Source of the DNA: Escherichia coli
GTDB lineage: Bacteria > Pseudomonadota > Gammaproteobacteria > Enterobacterales > Enterobacteriaceae
DNA length: 64,000 bases
Direction: 5' to 3' (one strand)
Assembly (NCBI RefSeq): GCF_029227855.1
Contig: NZ_CP074357.1
Part shown: piece by piece, positions 30,917-57,585 of the stretch
How the letters are laid out: the number at the start of each line of letters is the position of its first letter
How positions within the stretch are numbered: position 1 is the first letter of the stretch
Translations under genes and position numbers: made by a program
The notes under the pieces: model-generated
The model's database searches: none
Seen by the model: the letters and a program-made list of their open reading frames with translations, nothing else
What the model was told of the DNA's origin: nothing

Positions 30917-31354
30917 ATGGCGATGAATAAAAAAGAACAAGCCGCCTATGATGAGCTGGTGGCACAGGCCAGAATAAACCGCGCTTTACGCTGGTCTGAC
31001 TATAGCGTTGAACGCGATATGCCCGTACCAGAGGTCTCGGGGGAATACCAAAACGGCTGGAGCTTCAACACCGCCACTGGCACTGTTTATCCGACATGGA
31101 GCGGAACTACGGTTCACGGCACACGGGAAGAGGGAGAGGTTGTCGATGCAACCTCCCGCCGCATGCGAGGCATGAATGGTAGCCAGAACGGCATACCACA
31201 ATACAGCACCAAAGAACGCGCCCTGAAGGCATTACGCTGTTCGCTTGAAATCAAGTTTGCTATGCAGCTGGATGCCGTAGATAAAGCAATCGCAAAAGAA
31301 TTAGAGTCGTCCACCGCTCGCCGGGAGAGCGATACCTCAGATGCCAAACGGTAA
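30917..31354 (+). CDS. Hypothetical protein
   Basis: 145 aa; RBS AAGGAG. Confidence 0.5.
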   Translation: MAMNKKEQAAYDELVAQARINRALRWSDYSVERDMPVPEVSGEYQNGWSFNTATGTVYPTWSGTTVHGTREEGEVVDATSRRMRGMNGSQNGIPQYSTKERALKALRCSLEIKFAMQLDAVDKAIAKELESSTARRESDTSDAKR

Positions 31355-31598
31355 ACCATCAAATCAGGCCCGTGATCAGAGGGGCCTTAACGCCCTGAAA
31401 GAGGCGGTTCCAGCGACGGCACAACTACAGATGCGGGTTACCCCTGATCGGAAACTGCGTTACGTCAATCAGGCAAAGGCCGAAGGCCTGGGTCTAACAG
31501 ACTGGGTCCAAAAGCATATGGATAACGTGTGTGATCTGGCAGGCCAGCCCGACACAACCATGTACAAAGATGATGGAGAAACAAGTGGCCAAAAATAA
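31341..31598 (+). CDS. Hypothetical small protein; paralog of the N-terminal part of 57229-57585
   Basis: 85 aa; shared block QMR.T..RK.RYV.QA..EGL.L..W...H.D.VCD. Confidence 0.5.
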   Translation: MPNGKPSNQARDQRGLNALKEAVPATAQLQMRVTPDRKLRYVNQAKAEGLGLTDWVQKHMDNVCDLAGQPDTTMYKDDGETSGQK

Positions 31599-31805
31599 CA
31601 ACAGTCTCAAACAGCATGTCTTCAATATGCTGTCGGCTGGCAGCGAACTTAAAGAAGTGAAGCGTTTTCTCACCAGCAAGCGCCTTAAAGCCCGCCCAGC
31701 AGTGTTAATGATCCACGAACAGGCGATTGCTGTGCAGAACACTGAGTACCTGAATAAACCGGCTTATAGCTAACTGGTAACAACAATTAAAGAGAGATAT
31801 TTAAA

Positions 31806-32057
31806 ATGAGCGTAATCCCAGATTACACCAGGGTTCAGCATGTCCAGATTATTCGCGAGCGAGATGGGCAGAAGGAAGTTGTTCGAGTCTATGATGAAGA
31901 TGGCGACGTAGTTCTGTGTTTACCTGCCTACATTCAGGATGAGGAAATAAATCTTATTCTGCGCCGGTTGAATGACGTATATTCAGTCGGATATCGTGTA
32001 GGTGATGCAGCCCGCCGCCGCGCCATCAAAAAAGCGCTGGGGGATGATGAGGAGTAA
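31806..32057 (+). CDS. Hypothetical protein
   Basis: 83 aa. Confidence 0.45.
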   Translation: MSVIPDYTRVQHVQIIRERDGQKEVVRVYDEDGDVVLCLPAYIQDEEINLILRRLNDVYSVGYRVGDAARRRAIKKALGDDEE

Positions 32058-32313
32058 GGCCATTTTTACTGGCAAGATATCTGTATACCGGAGTCTTTAG
32101 AGTACGTTCTGATGGCTCCGGATTATTAATACTGTTTCACTCATGCAATAAAAAGCTAACCGAAATTCTTTCGCTAATTCAGTTTTAAATGCTCTAATCA
32201 TTAAATGTAATGAGCTTTATTTATCAATAGGCATGGCGTTTTTAATGGCTATTAAGCTAGTTCTGCTTTCGCTTGCTTCTGGAAATTGGGAAAACCTAAT
32301 TTTAACCCTATCA

Positions 32314-32326
32314 AAAAGTAACTTTT
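32314..32326. repeat. Copy of dispersed 13-bp palindrome (AAAAGTAACTTTT)
   Basis: 147 bp upstream of the likely start 32461. Confidence 0.6.
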
Positions 32327-32460
32327 CTTGTATTTTTGCATTTACGTAAACAAAACAAGTCCCGCCGGGCAGAAAAGAAAAACATTAAAATTAGCTATTT
32401 TCCCGAAAAGATCTCGAACACTGAAAAAGTATCATGGGGAACCTGATCAGGAGACAACCC

Positions 32461-56568: not shown

Positions 56569-56592
56569 AGAGGGGGGCAACCCCCCTCTTTT
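56569..56592 (+). terminator. Rho-independent terminator after hok
   Basis: AGAGGGGGGCAACCCCCCTCT followed by TTTT. Confidence 0.75.
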
Positions 56593-56631
56593 CAGGGTGT
56601 GGATTAGTATGCCATCGGCACCTTTTGAAAG

Positions 56632-56667
56632 GGTTCCTCTAAAGCGGAGGAACCCTTTTTTCTTTTA
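56632..56667 (+). terminator. Second strong hairpin/T-run terminator
   Basis: GGGTTCCTC-TAAAGC-GGAGGAACCC followed by TTTTTTCTTTT. Confidence 0.7.
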
Positions 56668-56979
56668 GTGAAAAGATTGTGGTTAGTAACGTTATGCAGG
56701 GTAAGCGTTCATATCAGCGGGCCACCAGCCATCTTTCATTCCCATCATGAAATTGCGGTTCATTGTGCCCACAAACACTCAGCTGGGCACCGTTCCGCTT
56801 CATGCAGGTCCGGTGCATCTTCATTTTCAGACGCTAAGCTGATCGGGGTGCATCGTGGAGCAGTGATGCCAGAGGGAGAAATTGCAACCGTGAAATCAAA
56901 ACTTATCATTCGGCTACCGGGCAGTGGTACTCACCTGGCAGAGCATGTATTTATATCCGGGCCTGGCTGATGCAGCCCT

Positions 56980-57198
56980 TCATACCTTCTGCTTCTCAAG
57001 GACACGGCGGAGTTTTTTTACCTGGGACGCAGTGGAAAGTGTGCCGGTTCTGGGATGGCATGCGCTTGCCTTTTCATCAGGTTTAAGCTCATAGGCTAAT
57101 GCCAGATCGTTCAGAGCCGCCTCAGCTTTCAGCAGGGCCTCAATGGCCGTGTTCAGGTATACAGTTCGGCTCTCATGGTTCATCAGTATTGTCCTCAC
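56980..57198 (-). CDS. Hypothetical small protein
   Basis: 72 aa; last gene of a four-gene minus-strand block. Confidence 0.45.
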   Translation of the reverse strand: MRTILMNHESRTVYLNTAIEALLKAEAALNDLALAYELKPDEKASACHPRTGTLSTASQVKKLRRVLEKQKV

Positions 57199-57228
57199 AA
57201 GGGTAAAATGACAGGCGATACCTGCCGT

Positions 57229-57585
57229 TTACCCTTTGTCTCCGTTAAGAATGGCATTACGGCAGGCTTCCCAGATAACCTGGGCATTAGCATCACACTC
57301 CACGAACCCGCCGCACTGATCGTATATCACCTGGTATACCTCTGGGGGAATCTTCCCAGGCGCAACCGGAGTTGAGCGTTTGCCTTTATGAATCTCATCT
57401 GCGGTATCACAGACAGCGTCGAGATGCCGCGACATCCACTCAGATAATTTCAGACCCTCTCGATTTGCCTGTTTTACATAGCGAACCTTTCTGGAAACCG
57501 TAGATCGCATCTGAATCTGTGTCACAGCTGGCACATCTTCTTTCATGGCATTCTGTAATGCAGCTTTGGGCTTTTTCATGTTCAT
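57229..57585 (-). CDS. Hypothetical protein with putative ribbon-helix-helix-like N-terminal block
   Basis: 118 aa; block shared with 31341-31598. Confidence 0.5.
   Translation of the reverse strand: MNMKKPKAALQNAMKEDVPAVTQIQMRSTVSRKVRYVKQANREGLKLSEWMSRHLDAVCDTADEIHKGKRSTPVAPGKIPPEVYQVIYDQCGGFVECDANAQVIWEACRNAILNGDKG

What the first reader, a model, noticed from the sequence alone, without database searches (positions are those of the whole stretch)
31341..57585. Recurrent small-protein families among the co-oriented cargo ORFs
Two families recur: 46923-47162, 52127-52351 and more distantly 52391-52591 (core D.E.PMTLNDLS.LC.S.A.AVG.PGG.KY); and 31341-31598 with the N-terminus of 57229-57585 (QMR.T..RK.RYV.QA..EGL.L..W...H.D.VCD, possibly ribbon-helix-helix-like). 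Duplicated small proteins in plasmid establishment regions are often anti-defence or regulatory factors.
Basis: seen in the sequence. Interest (0 to 1): 0.35.

Follow-up and report, generated by a model that had tools for sequence, protein, structure and literature searches.

The report
Two small-protein families on IncHI2 plasmid
Both repeated small-protein families are real: one is a pair of DNA-binding regulators, each tied to a shared promoter element also found in phage-plasmids, and the other is a trio of acidic proteins of unknown function found only on IncHI-type resistance plasmids.

Summary
The window is IncHI2 plasmid backbone. Both similarities are real and survive composition control (shuffle z = 39, 14 and 8 for family A; 30 for family B).

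**Family B** is 31341-31598 (+) and 57229-57585. The second gene is on the minus strand, so it is not co-oriented. [quoted passage not shown] A family profile hits the solved N-terminal RHH of AcrIF25 (E 7e-7), and 17 of 22 members weakly match the Pfam family NikA-like.

Each gene lies in an operon headed by the same ~95-bp promoter-leader cassette. That cassette plus an RHH gene recurs in two ~95-kb phage-plasmid-like contigs, with unrelated cargo genes. The most likely role is an autoregulatory repressor module.

31341-31598 is unannotated in RefSeq but clearly coding. It is absent from ~45% of IncHI2 plasmids through a 1.9-kb deletion.

**Family A** (46923-47162, 52127-52351, 52391-52591) is an orphan family. 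It has a small β-α-β-α-β fold, two members are very acidic, and nothing in Pfam, PDB or the fold libraries resembles it. It occurs only on IncHI-like plasmids, and the triplication predates the IncHI1/IncHI2 split.

One member always follows a conserved 67-aa two-transmembrane protein. Both family A units lie ~150 bp downstream of a 13-bp palindrome that recurs 16 times in the window.

An anti-defence role is untested. The array lies on the relaxase side of the presumed oriT, so its "establishment region" status is doubtful.

The parts
31341..31598 (+). Family B member 1: 85-aa RHH protein, unannotated in RefSeq. It overlaps its upstream (30917-31354) and downstream (31585-31773) genes.
   Evidence: Not annotated.
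57229..57585 (-). Family B member 2: 118-aa protein with an N-terminal RHH domain (about res 20-62) and a ~55-aa C-terminal extension of two predicted helices.
30193..30288 (+). Promoter-leader cassette, copy 1. It runs TGTATTGACAAT (-35), then a -10, CATGGCG, two stem-loops and a Shine-Dalgarno site. It heads operon 30289-32057, which contains 31341.
59283..59378 (-). Promoter-leader cassette, copy 2. It heads the minus-strand operon 59282-56980, which contains 57229-57585.
30289..32057 (+). Operon 1 cargo: 30289-30813, 30917-31354 (phrog_28248), the RHH gene, 31585-31773 (phrog_3345) and 31806-32057. Window 30430-32348 is missing in about 45% of IncHI2 plasmids.
56980..59282 (-). Operon 2: a DUF5417 protein (58338-59282), a 200-aa Cys-rich protein (57639-58241), the RHH-CTD gene and a 72-aa protein (56980-57198, phrog_19934).
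46923..47162 (+). Family A member A1: 79 aa, pI 4.6, net charge -7. It is the first gene after the 794-aa PAPS-reductase-family gene.
52127..52351 (+). Family A member A2: 74 aa, pI 4.4, net charge -8. Predicted β-α-β-α-β fold at pLDDT 79.
52391..52591 (+). Family A member A3: 66 aa, divergent, pI 5.2, with a hydrophobic C-terminus in place of the last strand.
51869..52072 (+). Conserved 67-aa protein with two predicted transmembrane helices. It immediately precedes a family A gene in five plasmid lineages.
46779..46791 (.). Copy of the 13-bp palindrome AAAAGTAACTTTA, 144 bp upstream of the A1 start codon.
51717..51729 (.). Copy of the 13-bp palindrome GAAAGTAACTTTC, 152 bp upstream of the start of the 2-TM gene that heads the TM67-A2-A3 unit.

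Best explanation
The finding is two unrelated, real paralogue families in the accessory gene array of an IncHI2 plasmid.

Family B proteins are ribbon-helix-helix DNA-binding proteins. Each is encoded inside an operon that starts with the same ~95-bp cassette: a sigma-70 promoter whose -35 sits in the palindrome TATTGACAATA, followed by a leader with two covarying GC-rich stem-loops. Cassette and RHH gene travel together between IncHI2 plasmids and phage-plasmid-like contigs, while the other genes of the operon differ.

I infer that the RHH dimer binds the cassette and represses its own operon. That would make it an Aca-like autoregulatory module controlling variable cargo of unknown function. 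The two IncHI2 copies share their predicted DNA-contacting strand residues (Q-x-Q-x-R), so they may cross-regulate. The 118-aa copy carries an extra small C-terminal domain. This is the same layout as AcrIF25 (RHH plus effector domain), but the C-terminal part is unrelated.

Family A proteins are an orphan family of small cytoplasmic β-α-β-α-β proteins, and two of the three are very acidic. The family was triplicated before IncHI1 and IncHI2 diverged and has been kept under purifying selection. I infer that they act by binding a protein partner. The best candidate is the conserved 2-TM 67-aa protein encoded immediately upstream. I also infer that they belong to a plasmid-wide regulon marked by the palindrome AAAAGTWACTTTT.

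Shown here: the homology, the RHH assignment, the cassette-RHH linkage, the synteny and the selective constraint. Inferred: repression, cross-regulation, the TM67 partnership and any role in establishment or anti-defence.
For: Paralogy:
- Pairwise alignments and shuffle tests.
- No further members among all window ORFs.

RHH assignment:
- The profile of 22 family B members hits residues 7-40 of PDB 8jdh_A (AcrIF25) at E 7.4e-7. That region is described as an RHH domain dispensable for Acr activity (bioRxiv 10.64898/2026.07.27.740549).
- Weak per-member Pfam matches: NikA-like in 17 of 22 (best 3e-5) and RHH_10 in 14 of 22, plus CopG_antitoxin and HicB.
- AF2 gives an extended segment followed by two helices at residues 32-42 and 47-67.
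- The non-significant Foldseek hit list is dominated by RHH proteins.

Cassette:
- The 23-nt leader element occurs exactly twice in the window, against 0 expected. The two copies align from the -35 to the start codon.
- The same cassette heads RHH-containing operons in L014 and L048.
- Of 35 IMG/VR matches to a loose version of the pattern, only the one with the full cassette has a family B gene.
- The other genes in these operons are unrelated to each other.
- Leader stem-loops: 91.7% of cells are paired, 4 pairs show compensatory change, and slid controls give 29-42%.

Family A:
- 82 clusters among 5.8 billion proteins, those with a source name all Enterobacterales, and only 26 hits among 1.84 billion cluster representatives.
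- The three-gene arrangement is conserved in IncHI1.
- pS is 0.54-0.86 (saturated for A2 and A3) against pN 0.11-0.35.
- AF2 pLDDT 79.
- Net charge -7 and -8 for A1 and A2.
- The 2-TM gene is adjacent in IncHI2, IncHI1, L006, L009 and L019.
- The palindrome occurs 16 times against 0.6 expected, and lies upstream of both family A units.
Against: - No binding or repression data exist, and the operator is not identified.
- No Pfam RHH model reaches its gathering score. The single-sequence match to AcrIF25 is weak (E 0.09). The AF2 model of the 118-aa protein has low confidence (pLDDT 61).
- Leader covariation rests on four sequences, two of them closely related.
- The RHH gene of operon 1 is deleted in about 45% of IncHI2 plasmids while its cassette remains. 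It is therefore dispensable. There the cassette sits directly upstream of the Ig-like gene.
- A1 has no adjacent 2-TM gene.
- Adjacency in related plasmids may partly reflect shared ancestry rather than function.
Confidence: 0.6

Rival explanations
1. Anti-defence effectors. Family A proteins, and the C-terminal domain of the 118-aa family B protein, would be small inhibitors of host immunity (restriction, CRISPR and so on), expressed early after transfer. The RHH would act as their Aca-like regulator.
For: - A1 and A2 are small and strongly acidic, as many DNA- or protein-mimic inhibitors are.
- The array holds an orphan N6/N4 DNA methyltransferase, a PAPS-reductase-family protein, hok, DUF957 and DUF3085. 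Methyltransferases and toxin-antitoxin genes are among the leading-region gene groups in PMC11541004.
- The RHH-plus-effector layout parallels AcrIF25.
- RHH-type Aca regulators of anti-defence operons have been described.
Against: - No similarity to any known anti-defence protein or fold.
- The C-terminal domain has no similarity to that of AcrIF25.
- The array lies behind the relaxase operon relative to the presumed oriT, which is the side that usually enters last.
- A3 is not acidic.
Confidence: 0.2
2. Family A together with the 2-TM 67-aa protein forms an addiction or toxin-antidote pair. The small membrane protein would be toxic, and the acidic soluble protein or proteins would neutralise it, helping to keep the plasmid.
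For: - The TM67-family A adjacency is conserved across five plasmid lineages.
- The 67-aa protein has two hydrophobic helices and a basic tail.
- The region also carries hok and a RelE/ParE toxin gene.
Against: - The order with the supposed toxin first is atypical.
- A1 is kept without a TM67 partner.
- No similarity to any known toxin or antitoxin.
- TM67 is only 27% identical between IncHI1 and IncHI2.
Confidence: 0.12
3. Family B proteins are RHH antitoxins of type II toxin-antitoxin pairs, and the small gene immediately downstream is the toxin.
For: - RHH is a common antitoxin DNA-binding fold, and members give weak CopG_antitoxin and HicB matches.
- One source names a homologue as HicB family.
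- The downstream genes overlap or abut the RHH gene: 31585-31773, and overlapping genes in L011 and L014.
Against: - The downstream proteins differ in every context and match no toxin family.
- The RHH gene is second or third in a longer operon, not at the head of a two-gene unit.
- Operon 1's RHH and its downstream gene are lost together in many plasmids with no sign of addiction.
Confidence: 0.08
4. Family B proteins are relaxosome accessory factors (NikA/TraY/MbeC-like) that bind oriT to help the MobH relaxase.
For: The best Pfam match is NikA-like, in 17 of 22 members, all below threshold.
Against: - The genes lie about 19 kb and 45 kb from the presumed oriT next to mobI.
- Family B was not found in the syntenic IncHI1 region examined.
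- The closest relatives are on ~90-100-kb contigs carrying phage genes; the one complete record examined is typed non-mobilizable.
- One copy is dispensable.
Confidence: 0.04

Closest known systems
N-terminal RHH domain of AcrIF25 (PDB 8JDH/8JDI)
   Same: It is the only solved structure matched by the family B profile (E 7.4e-7, residues 7-40). The motif shared by the family B consensus and AcrIF25 is h-x-h-R-V-x(4)-K-x-R-(Y/W)-V-x(5)-E-G-h-K-L-T-D-W-I, with h a hydrophobic residue. The 118-aa protein has the same two-part layout: an RHH domain followed by a further domain.
   Different: No similarity outside the RHH. The Cas7f-binding C-terminal domain that gives AcrIF25 its activity is absent. 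The 85-aa member is essentially RHH alone.
RHH-type anti-CRISPR-associated regulator Aca14 (bioRxiv 10.64898/2026.07.27.740549)
   Same: It is a small RHH protein encoded within operons of variable, mostly unknown small genes on mobile elements. It is reported to bind an inverted repeat overlapping its own promoter and to repress that promoter and a neighbouring operon. Family B shows the same genomic logic: a conserved promoter with variable cargo.
   Different: Sequence relatedness to Aca14 was not tested. No known acr or anti-defence gene lies in the family B operons. The cassette also carries a structured leader, which was not reported for Aca14. Binding and repression are not shown.
NikA / RHH_10 / CopG-type RHH families (Pfam PF21983, PF23807, PF12441)
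   Same: The RHH segment gives consistent weak matches across members.
   Different: No match reaches the Pfam gathering score. The genomic context is neither relaxosomal nor a two-gene TA unit.
Small acidic anti-restriction / DNA-mimic proteins (ArdA, Ocr; comparison from general knowledge)
   Same: Family A1 and A2 are small, cytoplasmic and strongly acidic (net charge -7 and -8). They sit on a conjugative plasmid among methyltransferase and hok genes.
   Different: There is no sequence or fold similarity. At ~75 aa with a compact α/β fold they are far smaller than ArdA. A3 is not acidic.
KorB operator network of IncP plasmids (comparison from general knowledge, for the palindrome noticed in passing)
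   Same: It is a 13-bp perfect palindrome repeated many times over the backbone, at variable distances upstream of operons.
   Different: The sequence is different (AAAAGTWACTTTT) and the binding protein is unknown. No regulatory role was tested.

Membership tests
Ribbon-helix-helix (Arc/MetJ/CopG) superfamily - family B | Sequence homology to a domain with a solved RHH structure. | tested here: met
   The profile of 22 members hits AcrIF25 residues 7-40 at E 7.4e-7. That domain is described as RHH.
Ribbon-helix-helix (Arc/MetJ/CopG) superfamily - family B | A match to a curated RHH family model above its threshold. | tested here: not met
   NikA-like scores 15.5 bits against a cut-off of 27. 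Matches are consistent but sub-threshold in 17 of 22 members for NikA-like and 14 of 22 for RHH_10.
Ribbon-helix-helix (Arc/MetJ/CopG) superfamily - family B | Strand-helix-turn-helix secondary structure, with the strand pairing in a dimer. | tested here: inconclusive
   The monomer AF2 model has an extended N-terminal segment plus helices at 32-42 and 47-67, at pLDDT 76-85 over residues 31-60. No dimer could be modelled. Foldseek hits are RHH proteins but not significant.
Ribbon-helix-helix (Arc/MetJ/CopG) superfamily - family B | Sequence-specific DNA binding as a dimer or higher oligomer. | not testable with these tools
   Candidate operators only: the palindrome TATTGACAATA over the -35, and the CATGGYG element.
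Aca-type autoregulator of an anti-defence operon | The regulator gene is linked to a conserved promoter while its operon partners vary. | tested here: met
   There are four complete cassettes, each followed by a family B gene on the same strand, and the other genes are unrelated.
Aca-type autoregulator of an anti-defence operon | A known acr or anti-defence gene in the same operon. | tested here: not met
   Operon partners match only families of unknown function: DUF5417 and phrog_28248, 3345, 1254 and 19934.
Aca-type autoregulator of an anti-defence operon | Binds and represses its own promoter. | not testable with these tools
   Needs EMSA and reporter assays.
AcrIF25 anti-CRISPR | A C-terminal domain that binds Cas7f and dismantles Cascade. 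| tested here: not met
   The alignment with AcrIF25 covers only its residues 11-50. The C-terminal 55 aa of the 118-aa protein has no match.
Relaxosome accessory RHH (NikA/TraY type) | Encoded next to oriT and the relaxase. | tested here: not met
   The mobI-mobH operon and the presumed oriT lie about 19 kb beyond 57585. Homologues occur on contigs carrying phage genes.
Type II toxin-antitoxin (RHH antitoxin) | An adjacent gene from a recognised toxin family. | tested here: not met
   The downstream ORFs have no Pfam toxin match and differ between contexts.
Known anti-restriction / DNA-mimic families - family A | Sequence or fold similarity to ArdA, Ocr, KlcA or any described family. | tested here: not met
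Known anti-restriction / DNA-mimic families - family A | A strongly negative surface charge. | tested here: inconclusive
   A1 and A2 have net charge -7 and -8, but A3 has -1.5. Surface distribution was not analysed.
Leading (establishment) region gene | Located on the side of oriT that enters the recipient first, and encoded on the T-strand. | tested here: inconclusive
   The array lies on the relaxase side of the presumed oriT, which is usually the lagging side. The nic site and transfer polarity of IncHI plasmids were not available. The gene content resembles that of leading regions.

The most novel reading that the evidence does not exclude
The cassette-plus-RHH unit is a portable regulatory module exchanged between conjugative IncHI2 plasmids and phage-plasmids. 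It would gate the expression of undescribed counter-defence or host-takeover cargo. Family A and its 2-TM partner would be a new two-component effector specific to IncHI-like plasmids, wired into a KorB-like global regulon defined by the AAAAGTWACTTTT palindrome.
Probability: 0.2. Interest if true: 0.65.

Novelty: new member of a known kind. Interest (0 to 1): 0.4.

Why it matters
IncHI2 plasmids are widespread in Enterobacterales. About 1,000-1,300 PLSDB records carry these genes, among them plasmids named for mcr-1. Most of their backbone is annotated 'hypothetical'.

This work assigns a fold and a testable regulatory role to one family. It recovers a gene that is missing from RefSeq annotation. 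It also gives precise targets for experiments: two promoter-leader cassettes, a TM67-family A gene pair, and a 13-bp palindrome that may organise a plasmid-wide regulon.

If the RHH module controls early or counter-defence genes, it would extend the Aca idea from phages to large resistance plasmids. As it stands, this is a solid but ordinary annotation gain.

Tried and rejected
- **Chance or compositional similarity:** rejected by the shuffle tests.
- **Extra family members in the window:** none found by all-vs-all BLASTP or profile search.
- **Family A in libraries:** nothing in Pfam, NCBIfam, PHROGs or the PDB sequence search, with single sequences or with a 20-member profile.
- **Fold search of the 118-aa model:** not significant, because the model is poor.
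- **Homology among the other genes of the RHH operons:** none.
- **Family B in sequenced phages (INPHARED):** none.
- **Rfam over the whole window:** no matches.
- **Consensus scan around family A genes:** not enriched in promoter-like sites (9 found, 12.7 expected). It found one terminator-like hairpin between TM67 and A2.
- **Fixed spacing between the palindrome and sigma-70 hexamers:** none seen by eye.
- **Literature:** nothing for the protein accessions or for the palindrome sequence. The R27 Tra1/oriT paper (PMC134963) is not held, so transfer polarity stays unresolved.
- **Loose cassette pattern in IMG/VR:** 34 of 35 matches were chance.
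Full report
**Context**

The window is IncHI2 plasmid backbone. Window 44000-58000 and 25000-44000 are 100% identical to hundreds of IncHI2A/MOBH plasmids of Escherichia, Salmonella, Enterobacter and others. RepHI2 is at 19934-21022.

The finding spans a long array of mostly + strand, mostly 'hypothetical' genes:
- a RelE/ParE toxin gene;
- an orphan N6/N4 DNA methyltransferase with an Mrr_N domain (39855-41105);
- a 794-aa PAPS-reductase-family protein (44289-46673);
- an HNH protein, and DUF6012, DUF957 and DUF3085 proteins;
- IS150 (54935-56304) and hok.

Beyond the window the record continues with more small + strand genes. A minus-strand transfer operon then follows, in transcription order mobI, a hypothetical gene, the mobH relaxase, traD, a further hypothetical gene, DUF4400, an S49 peptidase and a nuclease-related gene. 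The 760-bp gap upstream of mobI is the expected oriT position. MobI genes adjoin oriT in related systems (PMC10838148). That gap is about 19 kb past 57585, with the relaxase operon in between.

**Checking the observation**

All five ORFs are present.

| Pair | Identity | E-value | Shuffle z |
|---|---|---|---|
| 46923-47162 vs 52127-52351 | 50% over 64 aa | 2e-26 | 38.9 |
| 52127-52351 vs 52391-52591 | 34% over 41 aa | 4e-10 | 14.4 |
| 46923-47162 vs 52391-52591 | 29% over 42 aa | 1e-5 | 8.3 |
| 31341-31598 vs 57229-57585 | 59% over 51 aa | 1e-21 | 30.2 |

No shuffle out of 2000 reached the observed score for any pair, and an A-vs-B control gave z = 1.2. All-vs-all BLASTP and profile searches of every window ORF of at least 35 aa find no additional members.

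Two corrections are needed:
- 57229-57585 is on the minus strand.
- 31341-31598 is absent from the RefSeq annotation of identical plasmids. PGAP instead calls an overlapping ORF ending at 31773.

31341-31598 is nevertheless a gene. It overlaps its upstream and downstream neighbours in the manner of coupled genes. It has orthologues at 70-82% identity. Against one of these, non-synonymous divergence is 0.19 while synonymous sites are near saturation at 0.74.

- Single sequences give only weak hits: NikA-like at E 0.019, and the C-terminus of the NCBIfam LmbU model at E 0.002-0.009.
- A profile of 22 members hits one solved structure, AcrIF25 (8JDH), at E 7.4e-7 over its residues 7-40.
- That N-terminal domain of AcrIF25 is described as an RHH. 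It is dispensable for anti-CRISPR activity and is suspected to be a built-in regulator. The anti-CRISPR activity resides in the C-terminal domain, which binds Cas7f.
- Scanned one by one, 17 of 22 members match NikA-like and 14 of 22 match RHH_10, with occasional CopG_antitoxin and HicB hits. All are below the Pfam thresholds.
- The AF2 monomer model of the 118-aa protein is poor overall (pLDDT 61). It does show an extended segment followed by helices at 32-42 and 47-67, at pLDDT 76-85 over residues 31-60, and then two further helices.
- Foldseek hits are not significant, but they are mostly RHH proteins: AcrIF25, AtaR, NikA, Arc and TacA.
- The C-terminal 55 residues of the 118-aa protein match nothing except a PHROG of unknown function at E 0.004.

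**The two family B genes share a promoter-leader cassette**

Upstream of the first gene of each operon lies the same element, at 30193-30288 (+) and 59378-59283 (-). It reads, in order:
- TGTATTGACAAT, in which TTGACA is the -35;
- a -10 hexamer 17 bp downstream;
- CATGGYG;
- CACCGYCCCGGCGGYACCGGGCA;
- a Shine-Dalgarno site and the start codon.

The 23-nt leader element occurs exactly twice in the window, against 0 expected.

The same cassette heads RHH-containing operons on a ~98-kb Pantoea contig (L014) and a 92.5-kb IMG/VR contig (L048). A loose version of the pattern matched 35 IMG/VR contigs. Only the one carrying the full cassette also encodes a family B protein.

In all four operons the remaining genes are unrelated to one another. 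Those of the window match only families of unknown function.

The leader can form two GC-rich stem-loops. On the four sequences, 91.7% of cells pair, four pairs carry compensatory changes (for example CCCGG/CCGGG becoming CCTGG/CCAGG), and slid controls pair at 29-42%. Pairing is kept while base identity changes. I therefore read these as RNA structures rather than protein-binding sites. With only four sequences, this is suggestive and no more.

The candidate operator is the palindrome TATTGACAATA over the -35, possibly together with CATGGYG.

The two plasmid RHH proteins have the same residues at alternate positions of the predicted β-strand (QLQMR and QIQMR). They could therefore recognise the same DNA. 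This is inference.

**Origin and dispensability of family B**

- 31341 is closer to ~66-86-aa proteins on ~90-100-kb contigs of Salmonella, Escherichia, Leclercia and Pantoea than to its plasmid paralogue. Some of these contigs carry phage genes such as a C1 repressor, terminase, Ead/Ea22 and DUF551.
- No family B gene is found in the INPHARED phage set.
- None is found in the syntenic IncHI1 region.
- The operon-1 cassette is present in 1051 plasmids, but the full 31341 gene in only 605.
- In the other variant (for example p24359-1), window 30430-32348 is missing. The breakpoints fall at a short repeat, AACAAAACARGTC. This puts the Ig-like protein gene directly behind the cassette.
- Operon 1's RHH is therefore dispensable. 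The operon-2 copy may cover for it.

**Family A is an orphan**

A profile search of 5.8 billion proteins finds 82 clusters; those with a source name are all Enterobacterales. An exhaustive HMM scan of 1.84 billion cluster representatives finds 26 hits. These include a few distant 62-69-aa members and one tandem fusion of 155 aa.

The members fall into three orthologous groups, corresponding to A1, A2 and A3. All three are present in the same order in IncHI1. The triplication therefore predates the IncHI1/IncHI2 split. Between the two plasmid groups, pS is 0.54-0.86 (saturated for A2 and A3) while pN is 0.11-0.35.

A1 and A2 are strongly acidic (pI 4.6 and 4.4; net charge -7 and -8). A3 is not.

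**Two context features constrain family A's function**

First, a 67-aa protein with two hydrophobic helices and a basic tail (51869-52072) directly precedes a family A gene in several lineages:
- IncHI2, IncHI1, L006 and L009, where it is clearly homologous;
- L019, where the HMM match is weak (E 8e-4);
- L017, where there is a 67-aa ORF of similar hydrophobic profile that the HMM does not detect.

In L006 and L009 this pair lies downstream of the PAPS-reductase-family gene, directly in L009 and after one further gene in L006. In IncHI1 and IncHI2, A1 occupies that position. This suggests that A1 is a copy left behind without its partner.

Second, both family A transcription units lie 144 and 152 bp downstream of a copy of the 13-bp palindrome RAAAGTWACTTTY.

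**Mechanism**

For family B, I commit to an autoregulatory RHH repressor acting on its own cassette. This is an Aca-like module with exchangeable cargo. I put the regulatory reading at about 0.7.

For family A, I commit only to a small protein-binding factor working with the 2-TM protein, inside the palindrome-marked regulon. An anti-defence role (about 0.2) and a toxin-antidote role (about 0.12) remain open.

The TA-antitoxin and relaxosome readings of family B are unlikely, for the reasons given under the rival explanations.

**The 'establishment region' premise**

The gene content looks like that of a leading region. However, the array lies behind the relaxase operon relative to the presumed oriT, and the relaxase side usually enters last (PMC11541004). 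I could not obtain the R27 oriT paper, so polarity is unresolved.

**Verdict**

The anti-defence part is untested, and the positional premise is doubtful.

Family B is a new member of a known kind, carrying an interesting portable cassette. Family A is a real orphan family with no assignable function. Overall interest is moderate, at 0.4.

Noticed in passing
window 2410, 6194, 8058, 16137, 16202, 24373, 26597, 32314, 37518, 41730, 45508, 46779, 49510, 51717, 60156, 60282: The 13-bp palindrome RAAAGTWACTTTY occurs 16 times against 0.6 expected. Ten copies lie 92-233 bp upstream of + strand genes. The core AAAGTWACTTT is also frequent in every family-A-bearing plasmid locus (IncHI1, L006, L009, L017, L019) and absent from the phage-plasmid loci. 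It looks like the operator of a plasmid-wide regulon, comparable to KorB sites. The binding protein is unknown, and nothing was found in the literature.
   Followed up: partly
window 31341-31598: This clearly coding 85-aa RHH gene is not annotated in the RefSeq/PGAP records of identical plasmids. A locus-tag number is skipped there, and an overlapping ORF ending at 31773 is called instead.
   Followed up: yes
window 30430-32348 vs L056 3238-3250: A 1.9-kb segment carrying five small genes, including the RHH gene and one palindrome copy, is missing in about 45% of IncHI2 plasmids. The breakpoints fall at a short direct repeat, AACAAAACARGTC. The deletion puts the Ig-like protein gene 32434-34851 directly behind the operon-1 cassette.
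   Followed up: yes
window 51869-52072: A conserved 67-aa protein with two transmembrane helices always lies immediately upstream of a family A gene across divergent plasmids.
   Followed up: partly
window 16370-18826 (+), 24488-26908 (-), 32434-34851 (+): Three ~805-aa Ig-like-domain paralogues (28-41% identity). Two have palindrome copies upstream; the third has one inside its 5' part and one just past its 3' end.
   Followed up: no
window 3884-4939, 8150-9313, 60384-61568; 19934-21022 vs 2532-3407 (-): Two further paralogue sets. The first is three proteins of 350-395 aa at 26-32% identity. The second is RepHI2 and a second Rep-like protein at 43% identity.
   Followed up: no
L017 8001-8468 (protein P0100): A 155-aa protein made of two tandem family A domains, on a plasmid-like contig (~54 kb; a similar one is 179 kb) that also carries DUF6012, DUF4942 and DUF5983 genes and six palindrome copies.
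   Followed up: partly
window 44289-46673 and 39855-41105: A ~800-aa PAPS-reductase-family protein and an Mrr_N-N6/N4 orphan methyltransferase are syntenic with family A in IncHI2 and L006. The PAPS-reductase gene is also syntenic in IncHI1 and L009. Together they may form a DNA-modification module.
   Followed up: no
window 54935-56304: An IS150 copy (orfA 173 aa, orfB 283 aa) sits between the + strand array and hok / operon 2. Many related plasmids carry an additional IS421 insertion just beyond it.
   Followed up: no
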